NCBI GenBank assembly: GCA_000002435.2
Contig: CM018793.1
Strand: one strand, 5' to 3'
DNA: 64,000 nt
DNA from: Giardia intestinalis
Lineage: Eukaryota
The notes beneath the pieces are model-generated. The model was not told the DNA's origin. It saw only the letters and a list, made by a program, of their open reading frames with translations, and ran no database searches. This document shows, in pieces, positions 12,204-38,723 of the stretch (its first letter is position 1; every line of letters begins with the position of its first letter). A program made the translations under genes and the position numbers.

Positions 12204-12518
12204 ATTACCAAAGCACATTTATGTATCACTAGTTGGCGCTTTTGTATCTTGCTACGACTCAATGGTCTGCACATAGACTTAGGCTAACATAGCGGATTCA
12301 TCCTCGACGCCAGATAGTCTCATTGTGCACGTTCTCCTTTGCTCATAGTATGTACTGCACAAGGCTTTGCGTCAGCTGTGGGTGTCACTCTTCGCTTCTG
12401 AAGCTCGCCCAGCACATAGCGCAGGGTTCAGTGCCGAAGACAGGAGACCGTGGGCCTGAGCAGAGGAGCAAGCGCAGGATGAGACTATCTTTCGGACACT
12501 CCTTACTGCTATTAGCTA

Positions 12519-14684
12519 ATGTTCGAAAAAATTCTCTTCACAAACTGCATATTGCAATTGGCCTGGATAATACAAACAGTAGCTGGGGCATGCACACCGG
12601 GAGAAACTGGTCCAACTAAGTGTAAAACCTGTGACGCTATCATAGGCACAGACAGCTATTGCAGCGAGTGTGACCAGGCGGGCGAAGGACCCATCAATGG
12701 AGTATGTACAAGCGAGCTAAGCGGCAATACTTGCGCTAATAAGATATGCACCCAGTGCGTAAAGAATTACTTCTTATATAAAGGAGGATGCTATAAATTT
12801 GCCGAATCACCGGGAAACATCATATGTGAAGACGCGATAGATGCAGCTGGCGGAACGGACGGAGTGTGTACCACGTGCAAGGCTGCTAACGGCTTCTTCA
12901 AGCATCCCGCCCCTGCAGAAACAAAACAGTCCTGCATTGCTTGTAATGAAACGGCCGGAGTCGTGGACAGTGACACCACGTACAAGGGTACATCCAACTG
13001 CCTGAAGTGTGACCCGCCCGCTGCTGCAATTGGAGCTAGAGCAGATAAAATGGCAGTGTGCACTCTTTGCGATCAGACTAAGTATCTCAAGGAAAGCGCA
13101 TGTGTCGAGAAAGCAGGGTGCGGCGCCAACATGTTTGGTAAGCCAAGTGTACAGGACGGGAATAAATGCATTGCGTGCGGGGATTCAAATGCTGGTATAG
13201 AGGGTTGCGCTGAGTGCACTGCGCCTGATGAACCAACTATTAAACCCACCTGTACAAAATGCACCGGTAACAACTACCTGAAAACCACAAGCGAAGGCAC
13301 GTCGTGCGTACAAAAGGAACAATGTAATGGGGCCTACTTTCCTAATGATAGTGTAGACGGTAAGAAACAGTGCGTTTCGTGTGGCGATGCAACTAATAAA
13401 GGCATAACCGACTGCACTGCATGCAATCTACTCAGCAGTCCGCTAGAAACAGTTCTTATTAAATGCTCTGCCTGCAGAAGTGGGAAGAAGCCTAATGAAG
13501 ATGGATCTGCGTGCGTCGATGCCCCAGGGCCCTCTCCAGAAGAATGCTCGATCGAAGGATGTCAGATATGTTCGGATGACAAAAAGACGTGTGATAAGTG
13601 CCAATCAAACAACTATCTCACTCCAACAAAACTCTGCATATCTGATTGCAAGAAGCTCGGAAACTATTATTTAGCTACCGAGCAAACAACTGGGAGCTGC
13701 AGGGAGTGCGCTATGGTTAATTGCAAAGAGTGTACTGAGAACGGTAAGTGTGGAATATGCAACGATGGCTTTTACCTCCTGAATGAGGAATGTAAGCCAT
13801 GTAATGATAGTTGCAAGACGTGCGAGGGTGGAGTGGAATCTGATAAGTGCACTAGCTGTAAGTCTGGAAGTGCTCTTATTTATGCAGGCAACGGAAATAC
13901 AGGCACATGTAGTCTTGGTTGCATACCCAAATCAAGTGCAGATCCTGGGTCTTGCAAGACATGTGATTTAGCTATTGATGGGACAAAGTATTGCTCAGTG
14001 TGTAATGTGGATAAAGAATACCCTCAAAACGGAGCTTGTGCTGGCATCAAGGCGCGTGCATCCTCATGCCAAGATGGAAATGTTAATAATGGTGTATGTA
14101 GTAAGTGCGAGACAGGGTTCTTCCTTATGAATGGGGGATGTTATGAAATAACCAAGTATCCCGGGAAAACAGTTTGCAGTAAGACAGCGGCTGATGGTAC
14201 ATGTGAGACACCCGCGACCGGCTTTAGTCTAAGTAGCAATACACTCAAAGCTTGCTTTGAAGGTTGTGCTAAGTGTGCTACTGGTGACGATTGTTCTGAA
14301 TGCATCAGCGGCTATGTATCAGGTAGTACCCCTAATAGTTGCGAAAAGTGTAGTACTGGTTGTGCTACATGCTACCCTACTGCCACGACTTGCACATCTT
14401 GTCTTGCTGGATACTATCAATCTGGACCTAAGTGCATTGCCTGTGATAAAGATGATTCTACTATCAAAGGTATTAGTAATTGCTTGAACTGCGCCCCTCC
14501 ATCGTCTGGTAGTGGCTCTGTCCTCTGTTATCTCATGAAAGGTGCCGACAACAACGGCGGGAGCACGAACAAGAGCGGCCTCAGCACAGGCGCCATAGCG
14601 GGGATCTCTGTCGCTGTCATCGTTGTTGTGGGGGGCCTCGTCGGCTTCCTCTGCTGGTGGTTCGTGTGCCGGGGCAAGGCGTGA
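12519..14684 (+). CDS. vsp: Variant-specific surface protein VSP-A (721 aa). It has the signal peptide MFEKILF..., many CXXC motifs, a C-terminal transmembrane helix and the CRGKA tail.
   Basis: An in-frame TAG lies immediately upstream of the ATG. The tail is NKSGLSTGAIAGISVAVIVVVGGLVGFLCWWFVCRGKA*. AGTAAAC sits 8 nt after the stop. Confidence 0.93.
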   Translation: MFEKILFTNCILQLAWIIQTVAGACTPGETGPTKCKTCDAIIGTDSYCSECDQAGEGPINGVCTSELSGNTCANKICTQCVKNYFLYKGGCYKFAESPGNIICEDAIDAAGGTDGVCTTCKAANGFFKHPAPAETKQSCIACNETAGVVDSDTTYKGTSNCLKCDPPAAAIGARADKMAVCTLCDQTKYLKESACVEKAGCGANMFGKPSVQDGNKCIACGDSNAGIEGCAECTAPDEPTIKPTCTKCTGNNYLKTTSEGTSCVQKEQCNGAYFPNDSVDGKKQCVSCGDATNKGITDCTACNLLSSPLETVLIKCSACRSGKKPNEDGSACVDAPGPSPEECSIEGCQICSDDKKTCDKCQSNNYLTPTKLCISDCKKLGNYYLATEQTTGSCRECAMVNCKECTENGKCGICNDGFYLLNEECKPCNDSCKTCEGGVESDKCTSCKSGSALIYAGNGNTGTCSLGCIPKSSADPGSCKTCDLAIDGTKYCSVCNVDKEYPQNGACAGIKARASSCQDGNVNNGVCSKCETGFFLMNGGCYEITKYPGKTVCSKTAADGTCETPATGFSLSSNTLKACFEGCAKCATGDDCSECISGYVSGSTPNSCEKCSTGCATCYPTATTCTSCLAGYYQSGPKCIACDKDDSTIKGISNCLNCAPPSSGSGSVLCYLMKGADNNGGSTNKSGLSTGAIAGISVAVIVVVGGLVGFLCWWFVCRGKA

Positions 14685-14691
14685 CTTAGGT

Positions 14692-14698
14692 AGTAAAC
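14692..14698 (+). promoter_or_regulatory. VSP poly(A) signal AGTAAAC.
   Basis: The conserved VSP 3' flank cttaggtAGTAAACgcatctcctattacatctgct. The same element occurs at 29954-29960 (plus strand), 23448-23454 (minus strand) and 38710-38716 (minus strand). Confidence 0.7.
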
Positions 14699-14913
14699 GC
14701 ATCTCCTATTACATCTGCTCAGCAGCCTTGCGCAGAAGTCCAGGAATGAGTGGCCACGAAGCAGGGTCTCCTGACGTCTCGAGTAAACATACATAGTGCT
14801 CGCTCTGCGTGGAGCATCGAAAGCCCGGCGCGGTGTAGCCACGGCTGCTGGTTGGAGCGGAACGCGTTGGAGCTTTTTGAAAATGGCCCTACCCCGTGCC
14901 GGCCACGCGGCCT

Positions 14914-23461: not shown

Positions 23462-25426
23462 TCACGCCTTGCCCCGGCACACGAACCACCAGCAGAGGAA
23501 GCCGACGAGGCCCCCCACAACAACGATGACAGCGACAGAGATCCCCGCTATGGCGCCTGTGCTGAGGCCGCTCTTGTTCGTGCTCCCGCCGTTGTTGTCA
23601 CCAGTACTATCACCCATCTCGAGGCACATGAACGCACTGGTGGATGACACCGTGCACTGTCTGCACCCAGCGAGCCCCTCAGAGCACTTCTTGCACGGTC
23701 CACTATCGCTACTCTCCTTATAATATCCACGAGCACATACTTTGCATGTGGCAGCCGCGGTTTCGCAGGTGTAGCAGCTTTCATGACATTTCGTGCAAGC
23801 TTTGACGTTACTGAATGCTATGTATCCATCCATACATTCTGTACATTCATTTGCAGTATTACACGTCTTACAGCCTTCAGGGCATATTACAAGGTTGTTT
23901 TCATTATTTAAGTTAAACCCTGGCATAGGTCTATCACAAGTCCCACCAGTTGTCGCCACTGTTGCACATACACTGTGCGCAGGGTACTTCTCATCTTCGT
24001 AGCACCCTCCGTTCATCCGAAGGAGCCCATTAGCACACGAATTGCAGACACCGGTTCCTTGAGAGGTGCATGTCGCAGCCCGCCCACTTGGTTTCGGTGC
24101 ACAGACACCGTTCTGGGGATACTCATTGTCCTGGCTACATGCAGAGCAGTACCTTGTGCCTTTAACAATTAGATCACATGCTTTACAGTTCCCAGTGGCT
24201 TTATCTGTATTGACAACACATTCAGGAGCGCATTTACCCTTCTGCCCATTTGCATAGTCAAGGATGGTTCCAGGTTTGCACTCAGTACAATCATTAGCAG
24301 TGTTTCCCTTACAATTCTTGCAACTACCGTCACACTTCTGGCATATCCCAGCATCGTCAGCATAGAATCCATCTTCGCAGAAACCGCATTTGCCGTTCGG
24401 ATCACACACAACGCAATTCTTGACCTCGCACTTCTTACAGATCCCTTTGCCGCCCTCTGTGCTGCTGTAGTAGCCTAGAATATATTCGCAATATTTTATG
24501 CACATCCCTGTCGGAGTGAGATAGTTCTTGTCCTTGCACTCCTCACATGTCTTCTTGTCTGCAGAACATTTCTGGCAGTTCTCGACGGGGCAGTCAGAGG
24601 GCGGAGGTTCTGGGGCATCGACACATGTAGATCCCTCGTCATTGGGTGTCTTTCCGCCGTTACACGTAGTGCACTTGATAGCAGACTCTCCAGCTAATCC
24701 GCGAGCTTCCTTGAGAGTACATGTCTTACAGTCAATTATGCCACCGGCGTCGGTGTCTCCACACGGGACGCATTTTTTGATACCCTTAGCTGTGACAGGG
24801 AAGTGGTCTGTCTTACACTGCGTCTTTTCAACGCAACTAGAAGGCGTTACAGCTAATAAATAGTATTCGCCCTCACACGTAGTGCATGTGGCAGAGCCGG
24901 GGCCTTCAGGAGGAGTACACACTTTGCAGTTCGGAACACCTCTGAAACCATCAATCGTATCTGCCTCATTGCAGGCAATGCAAGATTGGTGGGTGTTATC
25001 GCTAGCACCCATATTTTTGAAGAACCCGTTAGCGTCATTGCATGTTTCACAGAGTCCTGCACTACTACTCGCACTTTTGCAAACGGTTTGTCCAGGAGGT
25101 GCTGCTTGTACATAGCATCCACCTTTGTGGAGGAAGTATCCAGCCTTAGTACACTTTCCACATGTGGTTGAATGCTCATCGAGAGCTCCATCAACTTTTT
25201 CACATCCGGCAGTTGTGATAAGCCCATCACTTTTATCCTTACATTCCCCATTAATGGGCACCTCTCCAGGTTTAGCACAGTCAGTGCAAACTCTATCTCC
25301 ACCTATGCTAATGCATTTACCCTGTTTACACTGTCCTGTTTGCGGGTCACTGCTAGCCTCTGTGCATGTTTTTGCTGCCCGTGCTACTTGCAGAATCAAA
25401 ATTCCAAAGAGGATTTTCTCGAACAT
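23462..25426 (-). CDS. vsp: VSP-B copy 1 (655 aa from MFEKILFGILILQVARAAKTC...). It has a CRGKA tail and is transcribed away from the palindrome centre.
   Basis: 100% identical at the protein level to 27982..29946. I chose the MFEKILF start by homology with VSP-A; the track ORF extends upstream to a GTG at 25642. The poly(A) signal is at 23448-23454 on the minus strand. Confidence 0.9.
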   Translation of the reverse strand: MFEKILFGILILQVARAAKTCTEASSDPQTGQCKQGKCISIGGDRVCTDCAKPGEVPINGECKDKSDGLITTAGCEKVDGALDEHSTTCGKCTKAGYFLHKGGCYVQAAPPGQTVCKSASSSAGLCETCNDANGFFKNMGASDNTHQSCIACNEADTIDGFRGVPNCKVCTPPEGPGSATCTTCEGEYYLLAVTPSSCVEKTQCKTDHFPVTAKGIKKCVPCGDTDAGGIIDCKTCTLKEARGLAGESAIKCTTCNGGKTPNDEGSTCVDAPEPPPSDCPVENCQKCSADKKTCEECKDKNYLTPTGMCIKYCEYILGYYSSTEGGKGICKKCEVKNCVVCDPNGKCGFCEDGFYADDAGICQKCDGSCKNCKGNTANDCTECKPGTILDYANGQKGKCAPECVVNTDKATGNCKACDLIVKGTRYCSACSQDNEYPQNGVCAPKPSGRAATCTSQGTGVCNSCANGLLRMNGGCYEDEKYPAHSVCATVATTGGTCDRPMPGFNLNNENNLVICPEGCKTCNTANECTECMDGYIAFSNVKACTKCHESCYTCETAAATCKVCARGYYKESSDSGPCKKCSEGLAGCRQCTVSSTSAFMCLEMGDSTGDNNGGSTNKSGLSTGAIAGISVAVIVVVGGLVGFLCWWFVCRGKA

Positions 25427-27981
25427 TGCCAGCAGTCCGTAGAGCATCCAGTAGAGAGAGCCTGCACACCTAATATCAGTGTGCTGTGTCGCTAGACATC
25501 GCTTATGGGGGCGGTCCAGAGGTCTTACATGAGCTGCCCCAACTTTCTGATCAGTTTGGAGACGATGGCTGGTTCTAGACAGCAAACAGGGACTCCTCTT
25601 TATTAGCATATCTAAAACCTGGCACCTTCCCCGGCCGCTCACCCTGGGATTTAGCTCACTTGCCCACTTGCGTCGTCCACCAATGGCGCCTCTCCTTGGT
25701 CTTCCTTCGTGGTGGGTGAAGCTCCGGTCGCTGTCTTTTTTAGATGCTCCCGTCTGTCAGGGGCTGCCATCGGGCTCTCCACTGGCCGCCCCTCGGTGTC
25801 CGTCTGGCTGTGGCCCGGGCAGCGCTCTACAGTCGCGGTCACTTGGGTCTCAGCGGGCCAGCTGGTGGGGAGGCTGGGGCATGGGGCGGTGAGGCTGGAG
25901 GGTGGCGGTGTCGTCTGTGCCCCTGGTCCGGTGGGCCATTGGGGTGGTAGGTGATCCCCTCTCTGTTTGCCAAGGTGGTTGTGTCTGATCTCCAACCGTC
26001 GTTGTACTCCCGAGACAAAGGCACCGACGATCGTGTCGTGTCCCCCTGACTGAGCGCCTCCTCTCAGCCCCTGCATGTCTCGGGCAGTACTGCTTCTCTG
26101 TTTGACTAGTACGTGAGGGTCAAAGCAGGCCATCCCAGGCCCTCCTGATGCTCTGTGCGGGTCTGCTGAGCCCCCTGGCATGCCCTGTCTGGTGCCTCGA
26201 CGGTAGTTCACCTCGGGCCAGCAGGGGCATGGATGACCCTGTGGATGGGATGGGTTCTCTCAGGCCTCTAGTGTGATGACCCAGAAGACTGACACGGTGG
26301 GGCACCAGTGACTGCACTGTCCCCGTGGTCAGCTGTGCTGCCCCTGGTGGGTCCTCGTTGTAGAGCGCTGTGTGTTGTTCATAGGCAGAGGTGAGCCTCC
26401 TTGGTCTCAAGATGCTCTACCATGCAGAGAGGAGCACGCTGAGGGTCACCCATACCTCACACCTGCTGTGTCCTCGGGGAGTTCCCGGTGTGATCCACTA
26501 GGACCTTGACCCCTCTCGTGGCTCTGATGACTCGCCTCAGGGAGAGTCGGGGCACCCTATACTGAGGGGTGTGCACCCTCCTGCATGAGCTGGGACCCAC
26601 TGCACTGCCCCCAAGGAGGTCTGCTATGAGAGGCAGTGAATGATTGACAGCCCCTCAGAGTGCGGTGGAGGGTGCTCGTGGTCGTCTCTTGTGATCGGGC
26701 ATCACTCTGATGGTCGGCTCCTGTGCCTGCGTGGTGCTCAGAGGTCACCTGTCTGCCTCGTAGCCTGCTGGACAGCCGGGCCTCTTGTGGCGTCCGAAGG
26801 TCTCCTCACTCCTCTGGTCGCTGTCCCCTCGGGTCATAGGTGGAGGCCAGCGAGTCTTCGGAGTCTGGTGCCTGCCTGGGTGTCATGGAGAGGCTGGCAG
26901 CTATCAAGGCTCTGCCACTGCTCGCCTGCCTGGAGTGTGCCTCCCTTGGGCCTGCTCTGCTGTGCTGCGTGAGTCCTCTGGCTCCTATCAGACCTCTGAT
27001 TGTGAGAGTGACTCCACCTGGCCTTCTGATGCCCCTGTGGATGAGCATAGCAATGTGTCTGGTTGAGGATCTCTGGTGCCCGTGGCTGTCACTGCCTCTC
27101 GGGTGCTTGGGTAGTTGCCTGGGGCTCTCGTATGGGGGCACAGTCTGTTCGTGTGTGGATGGTCCTCCTGGACTCATGTCCATCTGTGCACACTGTCACT
27201 CAGCCTCGAGAGCAGACCAGTGCAGTCACCAGGGTTGCTGTCAGAGGGAGTCGTCTGCCACTACCATCGTTCGAGCAGACTCTACAGCTCAGGCTGGCTG
27301 CTGTGCACCCTCATGGCAGGGCTGCTTGACTCCCCTTGGTCATCCTCTCTGTCCCGGTGCACACGGCTCCTGAGGGTTGTCTGGGTGGAGGCACTCACAG
27401 ACCACGAGCACACAGAGGGATGAGTCACAGATGGACAGCCCCCAGTCACCACAACTGCAATCACCCCAGTCCACCGAGAGGTCAGGGGCACAGACGACAC
27501 CGCCACCCTCCAGCCTCACCGCCCCATGCCCCAGCCTCCCCACCAGCTGGCCCGCTGAGACCCAAGTGACCGCGACTGTAGAGCGCTGCCCGGGCCACAG
27601 CCAGACGGACACCGAGGGGCGGCCAGCGGAGAGCCCGATGGCAGCCCCTGACAGACGGGAGCATCTAAAAAAGACAGCGACCCGAGCTTCACCCACCACG
27701 AAGGAAGACCAAGGAGAGGCGCCATTGGTGGACGACGCAAGTGGGCAAGTGAGCTAAATCCCAGGGTGAGCGGCCGGGGAAGGTGCCAGGTTTTAGATAT
27801 GCTAATAAAGAGGAGTCCCTGTTTGCTGTCTAGAACCAGCCATCGTCTCCAAACTGATCAGAAAGTTGGGGCAGCTCATGTAAGACCTCTGGACCGCCCC
27901 CATAAGCGATGTCTAGCGACACAGCACACTGATATTAGGTGTGCAGGCTCTCTCTACTGGATGCTCTACGGACTGCTGGCA

Positions 27982-29946
27982 ATGTTCGAGAAAATCCTCT
28001 TTGGAATTTTGATTCTGCAAGTAGCACGGGCAGCAAAAACATGCACAGAGGCTAGCAGTGACCCGCAAACAGGACAGTGTAAACAGGGTAAATGCATTAG
28101 CATAGGTGGAGATAGAGTTTGCACTGACTGTGCTAAACCTGGAGAGGTGCCCATTAATGGGGAATGTAAGGATAAAAGTGATGGGCTTATCACAACTGCC
28201 GGATGTGAAAAAGTTGATGGAGCTCTCGATGAGCATTCAACCACATGTGGAAAGTGTACTAAGGCTGGATACTTCCTCCACAAAGGTGGATGCTATGTAC
28301 AAGCAGCACCTCCTGGACAAACCGTTTGCAAAAGTGCGAGTAGTAGTGCAGGACTCTGTGAAACATGCAATGACGCTAACGGGTTCTTCAAAAATATGGG
28401 TGCTAGCGATAACACCCACCAATCTTGCATTGCCTGCAATGAGGCAGATACGATTGATGGTTTCAGAGGTGTTCCGAACTGCAAAGTGTGTACTCCTCCT
28501 GAAGGCCCCGGCTCTGCCACATGCACTACGTGTGAGGGCGAATACTATTTATTAGCTGTAACGCCTTCTAGTTGCGTTGAAAAGACGCAGTGTAAGACAG
28601 ACCACTTCCCTGTCACAGCTAAGGGTATCAAAAAATGCGTCCCGTGTGGAGACACCGACGCCGGTGGCATAATTGACTGTAAGACATGTACTCTCAAGGA
28701 AGCTCGCGGATTAGCTGGAGAGTCTGCTATCAAGTGCACTACGTGTAACGGCGGAAAGACACCCAATGACGAGGGATCTACATGTGTCGATGCCCCAGAA
28801 CCTCCGCCCTCTGACTGCCCCGTCGAGAACTGCCAGAAATGTTCTGCAGACAAGAAGACATGTGAGGAGTGCAAGGACAAGAACTATCTCACTCCGACAG
28901 GGATGTGCATAAAATATTGCGAATATATTCTAGGCTACTACAGCAGCACAGAGGGCGGCAAAGGGATCTGTAAGAAGTGCGAGGTCAAGAATTGCGTTGT
29001 GTGTGATCCGAACGGCAAATGCGGTTTCTGCGAAGATGGATTCTATGCTGACGATGCTGGGATATGCCAGAAGTGTGACGGTAGTTGCAAGAATTGTAAG
29101 GGAAACACTGCTAATGATTGTACTGAGTGCAAACCTGGAACCATCCTTGACTATGCAAATGGGCAGAAGGGTAAATGCGCTCCTGAATGTGTTGTCAATA
29201 CAGATAAAGCCACTGGGAACTGTAAAGCATGTGATCTAATTGTTAAAGGCACAAGGTACTGCTCTGCATGTAGCCAGGACAATGAGTATCCCCAGAACGG
29301 TGTCTGTGCACCGAAACCAAGTGGGCGGGCTGCGACATGCACCTCTCAAGGAACCGGTGTCTGCAATTCGTGTGCTAATGGGCTCCTTCGGATGAACGGA
29401 GGGTGCTACGAAGATGAGAAGTACCCTGCGCACAGTGTATGTGCAACAGTGGCGACAACTGGTGGGACTTGTGATAGACCTATGCCAGGGTTTAACTTAA
29501 ATAATGAAAACAACCTTGTAATATGCCCTGAAGGCTGTAAGACGTGTAATACTGCAAATGAATGTACAGAATGTATGGATGGATACATAGCATTCAGTAA
29601 CGTCAAAGCTTGCACGAAATGTCATGAAAGCTGCTACACCTGCGAAACCGCGGCTGCCACATGCAAAGTATGTGCTCGTGGATATTATAAGGAGAGTAGC
29701 GATAGTGGACCGTGCAAGAAGTGCTCTGAGGGGCTCGCTGGGTGCAGACAGTGCACGGTGTCATCCACCAGTGCGTTCATGTGCCTCGAGATGGGTGATA
29801 GTACTGGTGACAACAACGGCGGGAGCACGAACAAGAGCGGCCTCAGCACAGGCGCCATAGCGGGGATCTCTGTCGCTGTCATCGTTGTTGTGGGGGGCCT
29901 CGTCGGCTTCCTCTGCTGGTGGTTCGTGTGCCGGGGCAAGGCGTGA
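27982..29946 (+). CDS. vsp: VSP-B copy 2 (655 aa). It is identical to copy 1 and sits head-to-head with it across the spacer.
   Basis: Mirror of 23462..25426. ATG at 27982 (gcaATGttcgagaaaatc). AGTAAAC at 29954-29960. Confidence 0.9.
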   Translation: MFEKILFGILILQVARAAKTCTEASSDPQTGQCKQGKCISIGGDRVCTDCAKPGEVPINGECKDKSDGLITTAGCEKVDGALDEHSTTCGKCTKAGYFLHKGGCYVQAAPPGQTVCKSASSSAGLCETCNDANGFFKNMGASDNTHQSCIACNEADTIDGFRGVPNCKVCTPPEGPGSATCTTCEGEYYLLAVTPSSCVEKTQCKTDHFPVTAKGIKKCVPCGDTDAGGIIDCKTCTLKEARGLAGESAIKCTTCNGGKTPNDEGSTCVDAPEPPPSDCPVENCQKCSADKKTCEECKDKNYLTPTGMCIKYCEYILGYYSSTEGGKGICKKCEVKNCVVCDPNGKCGFCEDGFYADDAGICQKCDGSCKNCKGNTANDCTECKPGTILDYANGQKGKCAPECVVNTDKATGNCKACDLIVKGTRYCSACSQDNEYPQNGVCAPKPSGRAATCTSQGTGVCNSCANGLLRMNGGCYEDEKYPAHSVCATVATTGGTCDRPMPGFNLNNENNLVICPEGCKTCNTANECTECMDGYIAFSNVKACTKCHESCYTCETAAATCKVCARGYYKESSDSGPCKKCSEGLAGCRQCTVSSTSAFMCLEMGDSTGDNNGGSTNKSGLSTGAIAGISVAVIVVVGGLVGFLCWWFVCRGKA

Positions 29947-32900
29947 CTTAGGTAGTAAACGCATCTCCTATTACATCTGCTTACTCTATAGCTTCGACGT
30001 TGCTATTCTACGAGGTTACCGGGTTACCCGTTTCCGAGCACCCGTCGGATTCTGCGGCAGGACTGTGCCTTCGTATCTCATCGTACCCACTTCTGTATGG
30101 CAACAAACACCCCCTACTATGGCGTAGTTGCTCCACCCAGAGGCAGGTGACACATAGATCCTTGGCTCTGATAGGCGCCTCTGTGCCCCACCTCTCGCAC
30201 CTTAGCAGCCCGACTACAGCACCGTGGGGTTTGGGCACCCTCGGGCAGAGTGTGTTGGGCATTTGATCAGCTATGCACAAGGCCCGTGACAGTCAAGGCC
30301 TGCAGCGCTGATCTATCGCCTTAGGTACTCGGTGCATCCAGAGACGACCACTGGAAGAACGGCTAGTCACACCTGTCAGCCATTAGTGTCTTGCGGCATC
30401 TCCAACACAAGCCTCTAGGCAGTGATTCACAGTGATGCATGAGCTACAGGGGAGCTTGCCGCCAAACATGATCTGTGTGCATAGATTAGCGACCATTACT
30501 CGGTAAAGCGGGCGCTTCTCAGTCCGGGCACATCTGGTCCACGTGATCTTCTTTGTGTGAAGGCAAGCTCCTCCACAGTCCTGTAGTTGCACCCTAGAAG
30601 TGCCTGACTCCAGTTCCTGTGTCAGTACGACCGGCTCAATTGTGGAATGAATACCGCAAGACGTTTATAGTTAATGACAGTGTGCTGTGGATCTTCTGGC
30701 GGTTTTGCTGAGCCCTGTGCCGCTATCCGCAAACATCTACCCCAGGGATATAGAAATCAGAGTCTGCAGAGGGATCCCTGGGGCTGTGAGCAGGGTGGTC
30801 TTCAGGGACCTGACCGACGGCATCCACGGACATGGGCGCTCTCAACTGTGGTCGGGTCGAAGGCAGTGCTTGCTGGCTCGTGCAGGGGCGATGCGGCTCT
30901 CCGGTAGGCCTCGGTGTCCGGCCGCATGACCTCCGTTAAACTCCTGGACGGGCTGAGATTTTGGCCACGGCATCTGCAGGCAAGCCAGCACCGTGGTCCC
31001 CTCCACCAGGAGTCATCCTGTCTCACCTCCGGTGCCATCCTTCGCCGGGTCTTCGGTGGGACACCCATACACGTTAGCCACTGCACAATATACAGTATGA
31101 ATCTCTAACAATCTCTAACACATCGCACAGCCCTGCCGGCCGCCAGTTCGGCCATCCTACGGCGGAAACTCCTTAACTCGTTCCGAATTAAGAAGAGAAG
31201 CGCCGTCAGGCCCCGCCAGTACTGCGATCGGAGACGTCGTGGGAACACGGGGTGCCGAACTTTCTGCCGTTGACTGTGGCTGTCAGTCCTTGTCAGCCCC
31301 CGCACATGAGGACTCCGGGCCGCATCCCACTACGCACTCTCGTGGAGCGACAGCGCAGACACTAAAGGGTGGCTTGGGGTCGTTCACTGGGCGTCGGCCA
31401 CCTCATCGAGACCCCCGCAAATTGCTCCCGAGGAGTCTCCACCGACATGCGCTATAGGTGGGCGCTTAGCGTGCTCTGCGAGGGCAGGCCGGAAGCAGGT
31501 GGACACGCCGAGTGCCGAATGGAAGGTGGCGCAGGGGCTGTGACTGCATGCACCAGCTCGCCCATCAACAGAGTACGCGGACAGGCCTGACCGGTATAGA
31601 GGACCTCACAGAACCTCACAGACAAAGAGCCTGAGGGCCTATAGCGGACTTCTACAGGCCAGTTCAACAACAGAGACGTCGGATGGCAGGCGCTAACAAG
31701 GATTGCTCGGCTCGACCCGCTAACGTAGATCCTCCAGATTGCATGCGCAAGACTGTTGCACCTACAACGGAGACCGACCTGGGTCGAGACTCACATAAAG
31801 ACAGCAGCTTCGTGGATCATGAAAGCAACAAGCAAATGGCGTTTGTCCGTGCCTCCTGTCCATCTAGTGTCTGGGCCAGACGCGGACCCTGGCAGTCAAG
31901 CAGAGAATGCACAGCAGCCGGCCCCAGACTGGGCGACCCAGAACTGCTTGTAAAATGGTCAACATGTCGCTGGGCCAGTTGTGGAGTGTGAAGCTAAGAA
32001 TGAGGCTCCTCCATGTTGCTGGTCAGCCCGACCTCCAGGGAGCAGCTCCAAAAGAGACTACACGACGAACGAGGACCAGCAAGAGGCCAGAAGGAGCAGT
32101 CGCTCGACAAATGAGGAAGAGCTAGAGATGCAACAACATGCAGGCGGCAGAGAAGAAGCAGGCACACCTAGCTCCGGTCACTTTTCCACTTATTGGACGC
32201 TGAGGGATGCACTCAGTAAGGACAGCCTGTACCAGCAACGCCTCAGCTCCAGCCTGAGCACTCCCTCCCAGGCTTCTTGTACACTGCTGGAGAGAGCGTC
32301 CACTTGGGCCTGCTAGGAGCAGACCCGCTCGATGAGGCCCTGGGACCTTCTCGTACTCTTCGCTGCCATCGGTGTATCCAGGTAGCGTACCGGTACTTCG
32401 TGGCACTAGCGGGGAATGCTCTTCCTATCTACGCCTAGTTCCTGGAATCCCGTGCCGGTGAAGGACGCTTTGAGCACAAGCTCACACGGAGCTTAGGGCG
32501 TCTGTGTTTCCGCCCAGCAGGTAGCACAGCACCAGGCGAGCAGTCGTCATGTCGCGCTGGATGCCAGCTTCTTTAATCAAGGAGCCATTCGACGCGAAGC
32601 TCTTCCGGATACACAGCTTCTTGGATGGGTTGGCTCAGCAGGCCTGCTTATTGGGGTTTGCTGGGCACGGCTAGTGGTCAGCCGGCTCCTGGGTAAGGGA
32701 GTTCATCCATTTCTCGGCGGTGGGCAGTGCATCCCTTCCGGCGCACCTGCTCGTGCCAGAAGGTGTGCACAGGATGATCAGAGATGCAACTGTGCTATGG
32801 TGGCCGCATCCAGGGTGCAGATATAGAGGCAATAGTATACCTGTCAAGACAGCAAACGACTGCCCTGTAGCTCCTCGGCGTGTTGGCGCATGTAGGCAGA

Positions 32901-35900
32901 GGGCTAACCAAGATGGATCTGGTGGCCGACCAACTGCACGTTAGTGTTAGCTCACAGCCCAGAGGGCGTTCGGCCGCCCGTTGTTAGACAGGAATATCTA
33001 GTGGATCGTCGACCCAGAACTGCGATGGTCGAGTCGTCTGAGCACACAGGAAACCCTGCCTCCACCTGCTGTGTATGGCCCCTGCAACGATGCACAGGCC
33101 ACGGATTGCGCGACATCCAGGCCGTCACAGCTTGCGTCTGGTGGGCCCTGCGTTATGAAGTGGCCGAGCATGCTACACGCTCTAGGAATGACTGTCTCGC
33201 CACTGACCAGGACTTCAACTATTAGCCGTTTCTACCGACCACTCGTCGATGCCCCTCGACGACCACCAGGCAAGCCGGGCTCTCCAGTCTTCAGCCCTTA
33301 CTGGGGTATGTATCAGCGCACCCAGGCACGCCCCCGTAGCCCGCAGGGGGGAAGCATGGCACGCATGCGAAGGAAGTGGGCGGCCCGAGAAGATCCTGGC
33401 CCGTCTGGAGCGAGAGGGTGCCGGGCCCAGGAAGAACCCCATGCTCCTCCAGGGCGGCGCGGACGTCCTGGGTGCGGAGCGCGTTGTTGTACGTCATCCG
33501 CAGCTCCTGGCGCGGATACTTCGCCCCGAAGCGCTCGTGGACCCTGCGGTAGAAGTCCGGGCCCAGGATGCTCCGGTCCCTGACCCCGGCGATGATCATC
33601 GCCTTGATGGCCCTGCGGTCCTCGCCGGTCATCTTCACGTTGAGGATGCTCCGCGAGTGCGTCTCGCGGTACCAGTGGTAGATCCTGCTCCGGTCCTCGG
33701 ACAGGGCGCGGGCGATCTTCTTCCAGTCGATGGCCGTCCGGAGCACGTGCCGGTGGAGGAGCAGCGGCCGCCGCGCGAGGCTCTCGGCCGTCTCCCCCAG
33801 CCGCCGGGCAGCGACGACCTGCTTCGCGAGCTCGAGCAGAACGGAGGCGCGCGTCTCCGCCGTCATTGCCCCAGAGCCCATCCAATAGAAGCGGCGATAA
33901 AACTAAAAACAGACCAACGAATAATGTGAAATTAAATATGTACAGGCCTTGCGCAAAAGTTTTAGCGGGTGTTTGTTGCCTGCCTGCCCCGGTCCGTCGG
34001 GCGAGCAGGGCGCCCTCATCCGGGCCATCGCCGCAGTACGAGTTGGCTTAGGTCGCCACACAGAACAGACTGCTTTGCACACGGCGGCGCCGGGGTTGAT
34101 GTATTGATCGGAGTTTTTTGGTATTGCCGGGGATCCCCGCCCTCGGCCGCCAGGGAGAGCCGCGCCCTGCGCAGCCCCGGTTTGTCTGCAGACACCCAGA
34201 GCTCTGCGGAGGCAGGCAGGCTGGGGCCGTCCCCCTCGTTCGGGACATCGCCGACGACGAGCTGCTGCCTGCGGCCCGCGGGGTCTTCCGCTCTGAGAGG
34301 GGTCGCCGAGTGTCGGGAGCCGCAGCGCTCTGCAAGGCCTGCACACGACCAGAGGCTGCCCAGTTTTTTGAGCAGCTGGCTCTGGCGCGGATTCTGCGGA
34401 CGCCTGCTGCCGGCCCAGTCTACAGGGGCGTCCGCGTGTCTACTGTGGCCTGGCGTGCGTGCCTGCGCGTCCTCCTGCGGTGGCTCCCCCCGTGGCGCAG
34501 GAAGCCCTGCCAGTCCTCTCCCATCGAGTTCTCCCGACGTGCTCTCTGTCGCTTCCAGTCGAGTTTCCAGCCGATAAAGAAGCGACATGACCAAATCAGT
34601 CGCCAGATTACAGTGTGATCTGCGGCCGCGAATCTTGCTGGCATCTTACGTGACAGTGGCTCTGGGTGTGCCCGTTCAACAGCAGCTGCCTTGAACATAG
34701 GTACTTAACGTGACCCGTATGCTAATATCTGCTCGCTCAATCTGTACAGAAGGATCTAACGGTATGCCGGCTAGAGCAGTAGGACTCGTCAGGCGAGCAC
34801 ACCGGAATTGCGTGGAGTACGCATCTCTAAAGGCTTGCATGCCTGGATCTGTGCTCGTCTTCTCACTGAGACCCCAGTACAGCGAAGGCGTTTAATATAA
34901 ACAGAAAGCCGTGGTGTCACTAGGGTCTATTCGGGCCACTCAGCTATATCGATCATTCCTACCGGTAAAGCCGGACTGCTTACTACTGAGCAGAAGGAAG
35001 CGGCTCCTATGACGGCCAAGCGTGGAATCGGTACGCTGTCAAGCCTCTCGATTCAGATGCAGAGTCTGCAATGTCCACGTGAGTAGCACGCCAAGTGGTT
35101 GCCGCTTGCTTGTTATAGACTATAGATCGGCACGTAGGCTCGCGGGCCGGCTGCATCTTACTCGGAAGTACAAGACGCTGCTCCTGTCTGGATCACAGAT
35201 GCGAATCGCCGGTCCCGATGCGCACGAGTGTTACAGAGTAACAAGGAGAGCACCCGTCTATGGCACACAGTCACAATTCGAGTGGCGTCCAGCCCTCCTG
35301 GAGAAAAGGCATGCCACGATCAACGGCATACTGCTTTGAACACCAGTAAGCACACCCGCTGTGTCTGCGAAGCCGAGGGCGGCCGTATCGCCGGCTGCTA
35401 CTTGTCACTCGGACGCACATGTGTGACGAGACGTGCGGGCGCCCTTCACAAAGGCCTCTTGATGCGCAACACACGGCCCAGCCGCCTCTTCTCTGAGAGA
35501 CAGATGAACTTTGCTTGCAGTGGGCTGCGTTAGCGTAGACTTCTGAACACGTCCCTCTGTTGAGGATTCAGCGGCTACGCACTGGGGGCAGACACGCGTG
35601 TTCTGTGGCCAACACGGGACTTGGCTGAGCAAAGGAGGTAACGAGTCGGCGCTTCTGGCCCGATGCTCTGCGTGCCTGCGCCAGAGACCAGGCTGCCAAT
35701 GTGCCGGTTAAGGAGAAGATGCGATGATCCACCATCGAGGACTGCAGTACCCGCGGAGACGGGCAGGAGCGACTTTTTATGACCACGAGCCTGAGCCCTT
35801 TAAGGTCTGTGCCCGGCTCTTCGCATTACACAGCCCCTCCTCGTGTGTACCCTCAGAGAGCGCGAACATCCTCTTCGACAAGCACTTCTGTGGACACCAC

Positions 35901-37873
35901 AGCAGGAATGCATAGTTCTGCGTTGATCATGCCTTAGCCCTATTGGGGTTGGTGACAAAACTACGACTTCCCTGTCACGAGGCATTACGCTCTGTACAGA
36001 AGAATGCCAGCAAGTCATGCAATGCCTGTGGATCCGTCCTTCGACCTTCTCCTGACAGACATGTGTCTTTTGGCATGCAGCCCTGCATTGCACGACGGTT
36101 CGCCCTCCAAGTGATGGTCTAGAGGACTCAACGCAGTGGCTCCCAAGATATGTGTCCTGAACAGAAGACTATACGATCATATACCTCTAACCACATGAGG
36201 CCACAGCCCACTCTGCTTCTCTATGATGCGCTTAGAACTGTCTCTACGGCTCTCTGTGCTCCATACTATGCGTCTGCTTGTCTTCCACACGCCTATCCCG
36301 GAGTCTGAATTAGGCAAGGCGCACTATATTTGGGGTCACTGCCAACTGCGTTGGCTATTCAGCAAGATATGACTAAAGGCAGCGTCCAGCACGACCGAAC
36401 ATGCTTGAAAGTTACACAGGAGAATGAGTACAGTGCGGGAATGTCCCTCGGTCTACTGGTAAAATGCCGTCGGCTGCTGATACAGGCTCTTGTCTTTGTG
36501 CGGTGACATGCAATCACGTGGTACGCATAGCATCGCTATCTGCATGACGCGAGGCCAGCCAAGTTCTGCCCATCCTACCTCTTATCCTTGCGCGAAGATT
36601 CTGAAAACATAGGATGTCTGGACATGGTGTAGGGCTCTATCGGTAGACCTTCTTTTCTGCACTTCAAGACATGCAGAGGCGGGCGCAGTGTTCCCTAGAC
36701 AGAGGCCTCGGGTATGCACGCTGTTGAGCGACGACTGGAGTTCCTCTGGGGTATCTTACAAAGAGCGGCGCGCTGGCAGGGGCGTCGGTTCGGTGTTCTG
36801 AACAGTGATTAGGGAGCTCCGGCAAGTGAGCGCCTCTCGACTGGCTTGTGTGCCTGCAGCTACACGTGCATGGGCAGCGAGCGGTGCACAAGCCCACGAT
36901 GCTGCGGTTCTACGAATGCCTACTCCTGGTGAGTGCCGTCTGGGGACAAGGGGTGTGTACCGGTACAAACTATCCGGTGTCTCTCTGCACACCAGCCTCA
37001 TAACAATGCTCTACTGGGACTGACTCCGGAGCCAAGTAGGAGAAGAGGCCCTTCTGGGTCTTAATGGCCACGGGCCCCACTACACACCTGGCGGTGCCAC
37101 CCAGAGACCGGATAGCTTTAGAATATTATATAGAAGTTAGCAGACATGTGACTTCGTCTGGTTAGTACGCGCTCTGTGCCGATGCGACTAACGTACACTC
37201 ATCGAAGCATTACCTCGTTTACTCAGAAGTCTTACCGGATACCCAAGGGCTCTCGCTTCCTTCTAGCAGGAGATGAAGCGGCTGCAGAACAGACAGCAGG
37301 GCACCTAGGCCGTGTTGACAAACATGAAGCACAAAATAGCGAGAAGTCCCGTCATGGTAGCATTAGAAACTGCATTAGAGAGGGCGACAAGTATAAGCAC
37401 GATTATACTGGAAAGCACGGCACGCATAACAAGACGTGGATCTTGGCACACAAGAGCGTGGACTTCAAGACCGAACTAGTGAGGAGCTTCTGCAGAGTCC
37501 CGGGCCCCAACAGGTCCTCGAGTGACACAGTGGCTGCGATCACTGCCGACCCTTTTGACCAGCTGTGGGTCGGTCTCTCCGTCTGATGGTTCGTGATATG
37601 ATTTAGAGGGTCCAACTGGAAGATTCCGGACCCTCGAGGTTCAAACGACCCAGGAGGCAAACGACCTCCATAAATCGCGCCAGCCTAGTGTCCACCCCAA
37701 CCCCACCACTATCTATGCAGGTACTAGCAGTTAGCAACGTATAGCAGCTACATGAAGCTGGCGCTCAGATAGTAAACTGAAACCCAAGGATCTCCCCCCG
37801 GGAGAGGTGGCCCGCGTGCCAGGGGTTGCCTCGCACCTTGGCACAGTTGATACGAGCCCACCAGAGAAGTAAA

Positions 37874-38494
37874 ATGGACGTAGTTCCGCCGAGACTCACG
37901 TACTACGACGCCCGGGGCACCGCGTTGAAGTGCCGGCTCCTGCTCGCAGACCTGGAGATACGGTACGAGTGGGCGCCCTTGGCGAGCGCCGAGCAGGTGG
38001 CCGCGGCGAAGGTGGGTGCACCATCGTGCACGCTCCCCGTGTGGGAAGACAGCGCGGCGCGGGTGGCCGGGGGCATGGTCATCCTGGAGTACCTGGGGGC
38101 GAGCCTGGGGCGGTACAGCACGTCATTGCAGGTGCAGGCTGCTGCGCGGGCCCTGGTGCTCTTCTGTGAGGATCTCCTTGCCGCCGCCTGGAAGGAGCCC
38201 GAAGCCGTGGCAGAGGCCCTTGCCGCTGGGGCAGAGATGACGCGCTCGGAGTGCATCGCGGCCTACCGACAGAACAGGATCCTTCCGGGGCTGACCGTCC
38301 TGACCCGGGACGTGCTGAACCTTCGGAGCCTGGCGTTCGAGCCGCTCGACTCGGACTACGCGGTCCTGGAGGTCCTGTATTATGCGGACGCAGAGTGTCC
38401 GGAGCTCGTGGACCAGTTTCCGCCGCTGCGCGAGCTATTTGATGGCTACCGCGCGCGCCCGGGGATCACGAAGCTCCTCGCCTCGCTGGTCTAG
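37874..38494 (+). CDS. Second, mirror copy of the GST-fold ORF in the right arm. It carries one amino-acid difference (K to E), caused by the 15207 mismatch.
   Basis: Reverse-complement duplicate of 14914..15534, differing only at the single mismatch. Confidence 0.5.
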   Translation: MDVVPPRLTYYDARGTALKCRLLLADLEIRYEWAPLASAEQVAAAKVGAPSCTLPVWEDSAARVAGGMVILEYLGASLGRYSTSLQVQAAARALVLFCEDLLAAAWKEPEAVAEALAAGAEMTRSECIAAYRQNRILPGLTVLTRDVLNLRSLAFEPLDSDYAVLEVLYYADAECPELVDQFPPLRELFDGYRARPGITKLLASLV

Positions 38495-38723
38495 AGGCCG
38501 CGTGGCCGGCACGGGGTAGGGCCATTTTCAAAAAGCTCCAACGCGTTCCGCTCCAACCAGCAGCCGTGGCTACACCGCGCCGGGCTTTCGATGCTCCACG
38601 CAGAGCGAGCACTATGTATGTTTACTCGAGACGTCAGGAGACCCTGCTTCGTGGCCACTCATTCCTGGACTTCTGCGCAAGGCTGCTGAGCAGATGTAAT
38701 AGGAGATGCGTTTACTACCTAAG

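What the first reader, a model, noticed from the sequence alone, without database searches (positions are those of the whole stretch)
14590..14730. The palindrome's outer breakpoints sit in the conserved 3' termini of two unrelated VSP genes, and each arm is itself bounded by inverted VSP 3' ends
Arm identity begins about 48 bp before the CRGKA stop codon of VSP-A (12519..14684, plus strand). It ends at the mirror position inside VSP-C (38724..40994, minus strand). These two genes have unrelated ectodomains. Just upstream of the breakpoint they share only family-level similarity with synonymous differences: left ...gccatAgcgggGatctcTgtcgcTgtcatcgtTgtTgtGggGggc against the right-arm reverse complement ...gccatCgcgggCatctcCgtcgcAgtcatcgtCgtCgtCggAggc. 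Every VSP 3' end carries the same cttaggtAGTAAACgcatctcctattacatctgct flank, so within one arm the ends at 14636-14720 and 23428-23510 are inverted copies of each other. The invariant VSP 3' terminus is therefore the likely homology substrate that created or resolves this rearrangement. This would be a concrete example of VSP repertoire evolution through recombination at the conserved tail.
Basis: partly seen in the sequence, partly recalled or inferred. Interest (0 to 1): 0.62.

Follow-up and report, generated by a model that had tools for sequence, protein, structure and literature searches.

The report
Giardia palindrome ends in VSP gene tails
A nearly perfect 11.3-kb inverted duplication on Giardia WB chromosome 5 stops exactly inside the conserved last ~50 bases of two different surface-antigen (VSP) genes; this is a real, base-pair-level example of VSP tails acting as recombination joints, an idea already proposed in general terms.

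Summary
The window is Giardia intestinalis WB-C6 chromosome 5. Arms 14634-25925 and 27483-38774 (11,292 nt, 3 substitutions) flank a 1,557-nt spacer. Arm identity starts 48 nt before the stop of VSP-A (vsp127) and ends at the mirror position in VSP-C (vspA6-S2). The eight differences just outside are all synonymous.

The centre is the catalogued head-to-head identical pair GL50803_137722/137723. The reference annotation already marks the right-arm copy as a duplicate.

Comparison with assemblage AII (DH plus a second assembly) and assemblage E (P15) adds direction:
- "VSP next to Dus, then arm" is ancestral.
- "VSP-C, then arm" is derived in the WB lineage. Elsewhere the VSP-C slot is followed by gene X, which lies on chromosome 4 in WB.

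So there is one derived junction, in the VSP-C tail, not two independent breakpoints. It can be placed only between -117 and +35. The tails show further exchanges, including a 173-nt block that is 100% identical between VSP-A and VSP-B.

- The 35-nt flank is not family-wide; only about 17 nt are.
- The inner arm ends are not at VSP tails.
- The VSP-B boundary relative to AII lies 181 nt beyond its stop.

This is a new instance of a known kind and of moderate interest.

The parts
12519..14684 (+). VSP-A (vsp127, GL50803_13390; XP_001705450 / KAE8304970), 721 aa. The left outer VSP, occupying the ancestral VSP slot next to the Dus gene.
   Evidence: Pfam VSP E=5e-149. Exact protein match to the WB entry. 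Listed as 721 aa on chromosome 5 in Adam 2010 Additional file 1.
14547..14719 (+). VSP-A tail block, 100% identical in inverted orientation to the VSP-B tail at 23427-23599. It runs from 138 nt before the end of the stop codon to 35 nt after it.
   Evidence: the repeat finder reports 173 nt, 100% complementary, 8,707 nt apart. Alignment.
14634..14719 (+). 86-nt block identical in all four tails (A, B, B', C). A homologous crossover anywhere inside it would be invisible. Position 14634 is the present outer limit of the left arm.
14684..14700 (+). Extended VSP poly(A) signal ACTTAGGTAGTAAACGC. Further copies lie at 23446-23462 (-), 29946-29962 (+) and 38708-38724 (-).
   Evidence: 4 matches against 0.02 expected. 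The motif is described in PMC3091692.
14634..25925 (.). Left arm, 11,292 nt. GC-rich (53-66%) and gene-poor, with hypothetical ORFs only (for example GL50803_113864 and 113865), plus VSP-B.
   Evidence: The first 2.9 kb are present downstream of the orthologous VSP in DH at 94-98% identity.
23462..25447 (-). VSP-B, 661 aa. One member of the identical head-to-head pair GL50803_137722/137723 (vsp26.1/26.2).
   Evidence: Pfam VSP. Xu 2020 Table 2 lists chr5 '<- ->', 661 aa, 2513 bp. Adam 2010 labels it HHIP. KAE8304974 and KAE8304975.
25926..27482 (.). Unique 1,557-nt spacer, 61% GC, with no recognisable gene. Both boundaries with the arms are sharp.
27483..38774 (.). Right arm, the inverted copy of 14634-25925 with 3 substitutions. 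Its junction with VSP-C is derived in the WB lineage.
   Evidence: DH, AII and P15 comparisons. The order of genes in the Sanger-era annotation confirms it.
27961..29946 (+). VSP-B', the second member of the identical pair.
38724..40994 (-). VSP-C (vsp25 = vspA6-S2, GL50803_37093). The right outer VSP and positional orthologue of the DH VSP next to the ankyrin and glucoamylase genes. Its last 51 nt and everything downstream are arm sequence.
   Evidence: Pfam VSP. 201-nt repeat, matching the TR201 entry in Adam 2010. DH orthology profile.
38775..38840 (-). Part of the VSP-C tail (-52 to -117 from the stop end) in which similarity to the DH orthologue is lost. It differs from DH_right at 1 of 33 sites upstream of -105 and at 23 of 106 sites from -105 on. 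This is a candidate interval for the original junction.
   Evidence: Fisher p=0.015.
40063..40803 (-). Perfect tandem repeat in VSP-C, 201 nt x 3.7 copies.

Best explanation
This is a recent large inverted duplication on Giardia WB chromosome 5, or one kept uniform by copying between its arms. It is built around the known head-to-head identical VSP pair GL50803_137722/137723.

The left arm is the original DNA downstream of the VSP next to the Dus gene. The right arm is a copy of it that became attached to VSP-C (vspA6-S2) inside the conserved region encoding the transmembrane segment and CRGKA.

The most likely process is homology-directed repair. A broken or replicating end in the VSP-C tail paired with the inverted, near-identical tail of the left-hand VSP. 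This could be break-induced replication, or long-tract gene conversion with its other end anchored in the VSP-B/B' repeat or at the spacer. The end then copied outward-to-inward along the arm.

Because the exchange was in register within a stretch that encodes the same peptide in both genes, VSP-C stayed intact. It acquired a new 3' end, poly(A) signal and downstream region, and lost its former neighbour, gene X.

What is shown: the anatomy, the polarity (left ancestral, right junction derived), and the location of the junction within the tail (-117 to +35).

What is inferred: the repair pathway, the single-event history, and how the inner junction formed.
For: Anatomy:
- Arms of 11,292 nt with 3 substitutions; the outer limit is at -48 in both VSPs and in frame; the adjacent differences are all synonymous.

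Left side ancestral:
- The DH contig L004 carries Dus, then a VSP, then 2.9 kb of arm at 94-98% identity. P15 L010 has an arm-like flank of about 95 nt after its Dus-side VSP.

Right junction derived:
- In DH (L011), homology with the window ends 5 nt after the VSP-C stop. It is followed by 520 nt and then gene X (DHA2_151367).
- An independent AII assembly (L021) matches that arrangement at 99.5% over 3,249 nt.
- P15 (L025) is collinear with DH from the VSP-C upstream region through a VSP to X.
- The WB orthologue of X is on the 2.76-Mb contig, that is chromosome 4.

The tail as a recurrent exchange boundary at this locus:
- The VSP-A and VSP-B tails are identical over 173 nt, extending 18 nt past the family-wide signal. 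By contrast, 254 WB vsps have 190 distinct 117-nt ends.
- WB VSP-A and its DH orthologue share the 5' 870 nt (98%) and the downstream flank, but not positions -1295 to -144.
- The P15 orthologue of VSP-A lies elsewhere in that genome, with homology exactly from ATG-1 to +19.

Not an assembly artefact:
- The 2007 Sanger annotation places helicase, glucoamylase, an ORF crossing the VSP-C/arm junction (exact match), 113865, 113864, 97698 and the two VSP copies in that order. An exact ORF also crosses the VSP-A tail.
- The 2020 annotation names the right copy GL50803_00d113864.
Against: - The exact crossover point cannot be fixed. The VSP-C tail from -105 to -49 is a third haplotype, with 6 differences from DH_left, 8 from WB_A/B and 11 from DH_right. 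The -48 limit may therefore be the edge of a later conversion, not the original junction.
- If the ancestral WB VSP-C tail resembled DH_right, its last 48 nt were only about 75% identical to the VSP-A tail. That is poor substrate for classical homologous recombination.
- An AII-like metagenome assembly shows the arm segment 18.7-22.2 kb at about 2.8x the coverage of single-copy contigs, and joined to a different gene on one side. Copies of arm DNA may therefore predate the WB event.
- WB-type short-read contigs for X begin at its ATG, not at a VSP tail. A simple reciprocal tail-for-tail exchange is not supported.
- Other boundaries here are not in tails: the inner junction at 25925, and the VSP-B module boundary at 23281, which is 181 nt past the stop.
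- The other identical VSP pairs diverge 139-729 nt outside the coding sequence (Adam 2010).
- No experiment or read-level data were available.
Confidence: 0.6

Rival explanations
1. The sharp limits at 14634 and 38774 are edges of later sequence homogenisation, not of the founding duplication. Arm-to-arm gene conversion keeps the palindrome identical. A separate short conversion then overwrote the VSP-A tail with a VSP-B-type tail (or the reverse), trimming the visible arm. The founding junction would lie further upstream in the tail, near -110, or the right arm would descend from an older dispersed copy of the arm segment.
For: - VSP-A equals VSP-B at 100% from -138 to +35, while VSP-C differs from them at 8 synonymous sites between -87 and -51.
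- VSP-C matches its DH orthologue at 32 of 33 sites upstream of -105 but differs at 23 of 106 sites from -105 on (p=0.015).
- Between -105 and -49, VSP-C is closest to DH_left, the orthologue of the left-hand slot (6 differences).
- An arm segment is about 2.8x in coverage and has a second context in an AII-like assembly.
- The arms are 99.97% identical, whereas WB and AII arms differ by 3.4-5.7%.
Against: - The counts are small (6, 8 and 11 differences in 57 nt), and DH_right's own tail may have been converted instead.
- Even under this reading the junction remains inside the conserved tail, so it refines the main explanation and does not replace it.
- WB annotates only two copies of the arm ORF 113864, both in this palindrome.
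Confidence: 0.25
2. The junction was made by a non-homologous or microhomology-mediated process, such as fold-back or template switching during replication or end joining. It fell in VSP tails by coincidence, or because the flanking gene-poor GC-rich DNA is fragile, not because of tail homology.
For: - The inner junction at 25925/25926 has no evident homology.
- The VSP-B boundary relative to AII is 181 nt past the stop codon.
- Identical VSP pairs elsewhere diverge outside the coding sequence.
- VSP regions are known to be gene-poor, variable and rich in structural variants.
Against: - The boundary is in register, preserves the reading frame and lies at the same codon in both genes. There are no inserted or deleted bases, and it sits in the longest stretch the two genes share.
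- Tail blocks make up only about 0.5% of the genome.
- Several independent exchange boundaries at this locus also map to the tail.
Confidence: 0.08
3. The palindrome is an assembly artefact of the PacBio reference, for example a collapsed or mirrored repeat or a chimeric palindromic read.
For: - Long perfect palindromes are a known artefact class.
- The Be-2 paper mentions a misalignment in the 5' region of WB-C6 chromosome 5.
- Short-read contigs break at the edges of this region.
Against: - The 2007 Sanger assembly independently ordered the right flank, VSP-C, arm ORFs, VSP, spacer and VSP. It contains exact ORFs crossing both tail junctions.
- Adam 2010 measured the head-to-head pair at 2190 bp between the 715-aa ORFs. 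That equals 2513 bp between the 661-aa ORFs of Xu 2020 and 2555 bp between the ATGs used here.
- Three substitutions distinguish the arms, and DH shares the right-arm base at 15207.
- DH independently shows the adjacency of the left VSP to the arm.
Confidence: 0.03

Closest known systems
Identical inverted VSP gene pairs of Giardia (Adam et al. 2010, PMC2996952; Xu et al. 2020 Table 2, PMC7000408; also found in G. muris, PMC7641422)
   Same: The centre of the palindrome is one of these pairs: vsp26.1/26.2 = GL50803_137723/137722, head to head, 661 aa, 2513 bp apart. Its ORFs are identical, its spacer is a unique 1.5-3 kb stretch, and divergence is abrupt about 0.5 kb upstream of the start codons.
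   Different: In the described pairs, identity stops 139-729 nt outside the coding sequence. Here it continues 8.8 kb beyond the VSP-B stop codon and ends inside the next VSP genes. The 3' divergence of this pair was left undetermined in 2010.
Non-allelic homologous recombination or gene conversion between dispersed members of a gene family, including VSP segmental recombination (Adam 2010, GENECONV) and VSPs at synteny breaks (PMC3091692; PMC7048089)
   Same: The junction is in register inside a shared, highly similar block. Paralogue-specific variants switch across it, and the coding frame is preserved. The VSPs here are mosaic between isolates.
   Different: Earlier Giardia work showed statistical recombination signals and gene-level association of VSPs with rearrangements. 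I found no base-pair junction of a multi-kb duplication mapped to the tail in the papers searched. No reciprocal product was found here.
Duplicative VSG gene conversion in Trypanosoma brucei, whose 3' boundary lies in the conserved C-terminal or 3'-UTR region (from my own knowledge; not checked here)
   Same: The conserved 3' end of a variant-antigen gene serves as the downstream homology for copying DNA between loci.
   Different: In trypanosomes this drives antigen switching at an expression site. Giardia VSP switching is regarded as epigenetic or post-transcriptional (abstract of PMC2996952). The event here concerns repertoire and genome architecture, and the DNA copied lies downstream of the gene, not the gene body.
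Large near-identical palindromes maintained by arm-to-arm gene conversion, such as the human Y-chromosome ampliconic palindromes (from my own knowledge)
   Same: Arms of >10 kb at 99.97% identity, a unique spacer, and sharp outer boundaries.
   Different: The scale and organism differ, and the outer boundaries here lie within members of a dispersed gene family. Ongoing conversion is not demonstrated.

Membership tests
[quoted passage not shown] | Pfam PF03302 VSP domain or a cysteine-rich CXXC ectodomain | tested here: met
   VSP-A E=5e-149, VSP-B E=8e-120, VSP-C E=2e-65.
[quoted passage not shown] | Conserved C-terminal transmembrane segment ending in CRGKA, followed by the extended poly(A) signal ACTTAGGTAGTRAAYGC | tested here: met
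   All four genes end ...GFLCWWFVCRGKA*. The motif is present four times against 0.02 expected.
Identical inverted VSP pair (Adam 2010 / Xu 2020) | Two identical ORFs in head-to-head or tail-to-tail orientation, 2-4 kb apart | tested here: met
   VSP-B and VSP-B' are 100% identical, head to head, and 2513 bp apart with the 661-aa start. This matches Xu's Table 2 entry 137722/137723.
Identical inverted VSP pair (Adam 2010 / Xu 2020) | Flanking identity ends abruptly 139-729 nt outside the coding region on both sides | tested here: not met
   The 5' side fits, ending about 480-500 nt upstream of the ATG. The 3' side does not: identity continues 8.8 kb to the next VSP tail.
Homologous (non-allelic) recombination or gene-conversion junction | Junction lies within a block of shared sequence, in register, with no inserted or deleted bases | tested here: met
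   The limit is at the same codon in both genes, the frame is kept, and an 86-nt fully identical block follows.
Homologous (non-allelic) recombination or gene-conversion junction | One side of the junction is orthologous to locus 1 and the other side to locus 2 in an outgroup | tested here: met
   The VSP-C body and right flank are orthologous to DH L011. The DNA downstream is orthologous to the DNA downstream of the Dus-side VSP in DH L004.
Homologous (non-allelic) recombination or gene-conversion junction | A reciprocal product or an identifiable donor tract end | not testable with these tools
   The WB chromosome 4 locus of gene X could not be retrieved. WB-type contigs start at the ATG of X.
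Fold-back or template-switch inverted duplication | Short inverted microhomology at the inner junction and loss of the DNA distal to the break | tested here: inconclusive
   The inner junction is sharp with no evident repeat beyond the arms. The former neighbour X is absent from the window and lies on another chromosome in WB. The order of events is unknown.

The most novel reading that the evidence does not exclude
The conserved VSP 3' end (transmembrane and CRGKA coding region plus extended poly(A) signal) might act genome-wide as a dedicated recombination joint. It would let VSP bodies and whole downstream chromosome segments be swapped in frame, both within and between chromosomes. It would thereby drive VSP repertoire turnover and also karyotype differences between Giardia sub-assemblages. 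The four alternating identical tail blocks in this palindrome would be a live substrate for further inversions and deletions.
Probability: 0.25. Interest if true: 0.6.

Novelty: new member of a known kind. Interest (0 to 1): 0.36.

Why it matters
Giardia VSPs are the parasite's variant surface coat. How the roughly 130-300-gene repertoire is reshuffled between isolates remains poorly understood. Earlier work gave statistical signs of recombination, a catalogue of unexplained identical inverted pairs, and a gene-level association of VSPs with synteny breaks.

This locus provides a concrete junction with polarity. An 11-kb segment was joined in frame to a different VSP inside the tail, and the gene's former neighbour now lies on another chromosome. 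Several more tail-bounded exchanges are visible at the same locus.

It also yields a hypothesis that existing long-read assemblies can test: enrichment of tail breakpoints genome-wide. The gain is incremental, however. The duplication is already annotated in the reference, the general idea has been voiced before, and VSP switching itself is not thought to depend on DNA rearrangement.

Tried and rejected
1. Assembly artefact: rejected. The Sanger-era gene order and exact ORFs across both tail junctions agree with the window, and the arms differ by 3 substitutions.
2. VSP-C imported next to a pre-existing mirror copy of VSP-A: rejected. The adjacency of the right flank to VSP-C is shared with DH and, in part, with P15.
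3. Hidden VSP fragments in the arms or spacer that could explain the boundaries: none found. tblastn with VSP-A, -B and -C hits only the four genes.
4. Function for the arm and spacer ORFs: none found. Pfam gave only a weak GST_N hit for 14914-15582 and nothing else.
5. Search for an AII orthologue of VSP-B to read the ancestral inner junction: none above 59% identity. The best P15 hit sits in an unrelated context and is itself a B-5'/A-3' mosaic.
6. Retrieval of the WB chromosome 4 locus upstream of gene X, to look for a reciprocal product: failed. The WB chromosome assembly is not in the position index, and only 3-kb short-read contigs starting at the ATG were returned. The adjacent gene numbers 14297 (vsp66) and 14298 are only a weak hint.
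7. Identification of the gene beside the alternative arm junction in AII-like contig L029: only a Logan fragment and a Hexamita kinase were returned.
8. Test of a two-step origin by comparing arm mismatches near VSP-B with the rest of the arm: 2 in 2.5 kb against 1 in 8.8 kb, p=0.13, uninformative.
9. Literature search for a prior base-pair description of this junction: none found in the held library. This does not prove that none exists.
Full report
**Identity of the window.**
Exact protein look-ups place the window in Giardia intestinalis WB clone C6, on the 4.02-Mb contig of the 2020 chromosome-scale assembly, that is chromosome 5.
- VSP-A is XP_001705450 / KAE8304970.
- Its left neighbours are the dihydrouridine synthase gene (Dus, KAE8304969) and GL50803_3564.
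- The glucoamylase gene (KAE8304981) and a helicase gene (KAE8304982) lie to the right.

From published tables:
- VSP-A is vsp127 (GL50803_13390; 721 aa).
- The inner pair is vsp26.1/26.2 = GL50803_137723/137722.
- VSP-C is vsp25 = vspA6-S2 (GL50803_37093), recognisable by its 201-nt tandem repeat.

**Check of the observation.**
A base-by-base mirror comparison gives arms 14634-25925 and 27483-38774, each 11,292 nt. They differ by three substitutions, at 15207, 25725 and 25781. The spacer is 1,557 nt (contexts).

The repeat finder reported 14512-38896 only because it extends through family-level similarity. The last mismatch outside the left arm is at 14633, and the VSP-A stop codon is 14682-14684.

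The eight mismatches between 14597 and 14633 are all third-position and synonymous. All four CRGKA-stop ends and all four extended poly(A) signals are present, with none expected by chance.

Positions 14547-14719 and 23427-23599 are 173 nt long and 100% complementary.

Four details need correcting:
- VSP-A and VSP-C are 32% identical paralogues, not unrelated proteins.
- The inner end of each arm lies about 0.5 kb upstream of VSP-B, not at a VSP tail.
- The 35-nt flank is not family-wide. Other tails keep only the ~17-nt signal described for VSPs.
- The A/C pair and the B/B' pair are each one observation, because each pair consists of copies of one another.

**What was already known.**
Adam et al. 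2010 catalogued 14 identical inverted vsp pairs in WB, 4 of them head to head. Their flanking identity ends 139-729 nt outside the coding sequence. For pair 26 the 3' divergence was left undetermined.

Xu et al. 2020 list 137722/137723 as '<- ->', 661 aa, 2513 bp apart. They state that 6.9% of the genome is duplicated, with multi-gene duplications up to 20 kb. Their annotation names the right-arm copy of one ORF GL50803_00d113864, so the duplication is recognised in the reference.

VSPs are known to sit at synteny breaks and to show segmental recombination. They have also been suggested as possible hotspots for structural variants. I found no paper that maps the end of a multi-kb duplication to the VSP tail.

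**The structure is not an artefact.**
The 2007 Sanger-era protein numbering runs in this order:
- helicase (709450) and glucoamylase (709451);
- an antisense ORF (GL50803_19182, 709458) that crosses the VSP-C/arm junction and matches the window exactly;
- 113865 (709460), 113864 (709461) and 97698 (709465);
- the two VSP copies (709467 and 709469).

GL50803_19351 (705449) crosses the VSP-A tail and also matches exactly. The old spacing of 2190 bp between the 715-aa ORFs equals 2513 bp between the 661-aa ORFs. The arms differ by three substitutions, and at 15207 DH carries the right-arm base.

**Polarity from other isolates, left side.**
The DH (assemblage AII) contig L004 carries Dus, then a VSP, then 2.9 kb of arm sequence at 94-98% identity, up to the contig end. 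P15 (assemblage E) also has an arm-like flank of about 95 nt after its Dus-side VSP. The left-hand order, VSP followed by arm, is therefore ancestral.

**Polarity from other isolates, right side.**
DH contig L011 is collinear with the window from 60342 down to VSP-C. Its VSP is a mosaic orthologue of VSP-C, with 93-96% identity in patches. Similarity decays in the tail and ends 5 nt after the stop codon. Beyond that, DH has 520 nt and then gene X (DHA2_151367).

A second, independent AII assembly (L021) matches this VSP-3'-to-X arrangement at 99.5% over 3,249 nt. P15 (L025) is collinear with DH from the VSP-C upstream region, through a VSP fragment, to X. The WB orthologue of X, GL50803_14298, is on the 2.76-Mb contig, which is chromosome 4.

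The VSP-C-to-arm junction is therefore derived in the WB lineage. The 'two outer breakpoints' are really one junction plus its mirror point in the source copy.

**Where the junction lies.**
Positions are counted from the last base of the stop codon.
- VSP-A, -B and -C are identical from -48 to +35.
- VSP-A equals VSP-B from -138 to +35.
- VSP-A equals VSP-C from -48 onward for 11.3 kb.

A homologous crossover anywhere within 14634-14719 would give the pattern seen.

However, VSP-C matches its DH orthologue at 32 of 33 sites between -138 and -106, and then differs at 23 of 106 sites from -105 on (Fisher p=0.015). Between -105 and -49 it is a third haplotype. It has 6 differences from the DH orthologue of the left-hand VSP, 8 from WB VSP-A/B and 11 from DH_right.

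One reading is that the original junction lay near -110 and that the VSP-A tail was later overwritten. VSP-A is now identical to VSP-B, including 18 nt beyond the family-wide signal. By comparison, 254 WB vsps have 190 distinct 117-nt ends. The site counts are too small to decide. The safe statement is that the junction lies in the conserved tail, between -117 and +35.

**Other exchanges at the locus.**
- WB VSP-A and its DH positional orthologue share the first 870 nt (98%) and the downstream flank. They are unrelated from -1295 to about -144.
- P15 has a full-length orthologue of VSP-A (83% amino-acid identity, no gaps) in a different genomic context. Nucleotide homology runs exactly from ATG-1 to +19.
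- A P15 VSP is B-like over its first 940 nt and A-like over its last 270 nt.

These results fit a picture in which VSP genes behave as cassettes whose 3' exchange boundary is the conserved tail.

**Evidence against generality.**
- An AII-like contig (L028) follows the arm from 18637 to 23281 at 96.6% identity and then diverges, 181 nt beyond the VSP-B stop codon. VSP-B's arrival beside the arm is therefore not a tail junction.
- The inner palindrome junction is in non-coding DNA and has no evident homology.
- WB-type short-read contigs for X start at its ATG, not at a VSP tail. A simple reciprocal tail-for-tail exchange is not supported.
- In one AII-like metagenome assembly, the arm segment 18.7-22.2 kb has about 2.8 times the coverage of two single-copy contigs, and it has a different left neighbour. 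Copies of arm DNA may predate the WB event. The 99.97% identity of the arms may partly reflect homogenisation.

**Mechanism.**
The best-supported account is homology-directed copying, by break-induced replication or long-tract conversion. It would have started from the VSP-C tail on the inverted tail of the Dus-side VSP and run inward along the arm.

The anatomy, the polarity and the tail location are shown. The pathway, the number of steps and the origin of the inner junction are inferred.

The consequences are architectural. The VSP-C protein is unchanged, because its last 38 residues are identical to those of VSP-A. It now has a new 3' end and new downstream DNA. VSP-B is present twice. Four identical 86-nt tail blocks now alternate in orientation within 24 kb, which could support further inversions or deletions.

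**Verdict.**
This is a new, well-documented instance of a known kind of event in a known gene family, and it is already implicit in the reference annotation. It is of moderate interest, mainly as a seed for a genome-wide breakpoint survey.

Noticed in passing
window 12518-14703; locus L027 751-2937: P15 (assemblage E) has a full-length, gap-free orthologue of WB VSP-A (83% amino-acid, 83% nucleotide identity) in a different genomic context. Homology starts 1 nt before the ATG and ends 19 nt after the stop, like a movable cassette. VSPs are usually described as poorly conserved between assemblages.
   Followed up: partly
window 12519-14684 versus L004 11984-13837: The DH gene in the same slot shares the first 870 nt with WB VSP-A (98%) and the downstream flank, but has an unrelated middle and 3' part that resembles the P15 slot gene. 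This is a clear within-gene replacement between AI and AII.
   Followed up: partly
window 14682-14690, 23456-23464, 38718-38726 versus DH and P15 tails: The three WB tails end GCG-TGA-CTTAGG, whereas the DH and P15 tails examined end GCG-TAG-ACTTAGG. One base fewer turns the stop from TAG into TGA and shifts the poly(A) signal to overlap the stop codon.
   Followed up: no
window 40063-40803: VSP-C carries 3.7 perfect copies of a 201-nt repeat. The 2007 assembly listed 2 copies (638 aa), and the DH orthologue is 65 aa shorter. Repeat number therefore varies or was collapsed earlier.
   Followed up: no
window 41776-43278; L017 5341-6865; L025 5912-7452: The 1.5-kb non-coding stretch upstream of VSP-C is present twice in P15. 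One copy is next to the ankyrin gene and the other is next to the VSP that precedes gene X.
   Followed up: no
window 14700-23400 and 30000-38700: The arms are 53-66% GC, compared with 43-47% in the flanking genes. They contain almost no long ORFs with recognisable domains. WB and AII differ here by 3.4-5.7%, against 1.4-1.8% in the flanks.
   Followed up: partly
window 12467; loci L001-L003, L006-L009, L018-L020: Short-read contigs from many isolates all stop 52 nt before the VSP-A start codon. WB-type contigs for GL50803_14298 all begin 0-2 nt before its ATG. This suggests repeated or heterozygous sequence immediately upstream at both places.
   Followed up: no
L029 1-1316 joined to window-like 18717-22185: In an AII-like metagenome assembly, the arm segment is joined on its left to the 3' end of an unrelated gene (best named hit a Hexamita CDC7-like kinase). 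Its coverage is about 2.8x that of single-copy contigs, so part of the arm may be a dispersed repeat in AII.
   Followed up: partly
window 14914-15582 (-) and mirror 37826-38494 (+): A 222-aa ORF just inside each arm gives a weak glutathione S-transferase N-terminal hit (E=6.5e-6, just above the Pfam cut-off).
   Followed up: no
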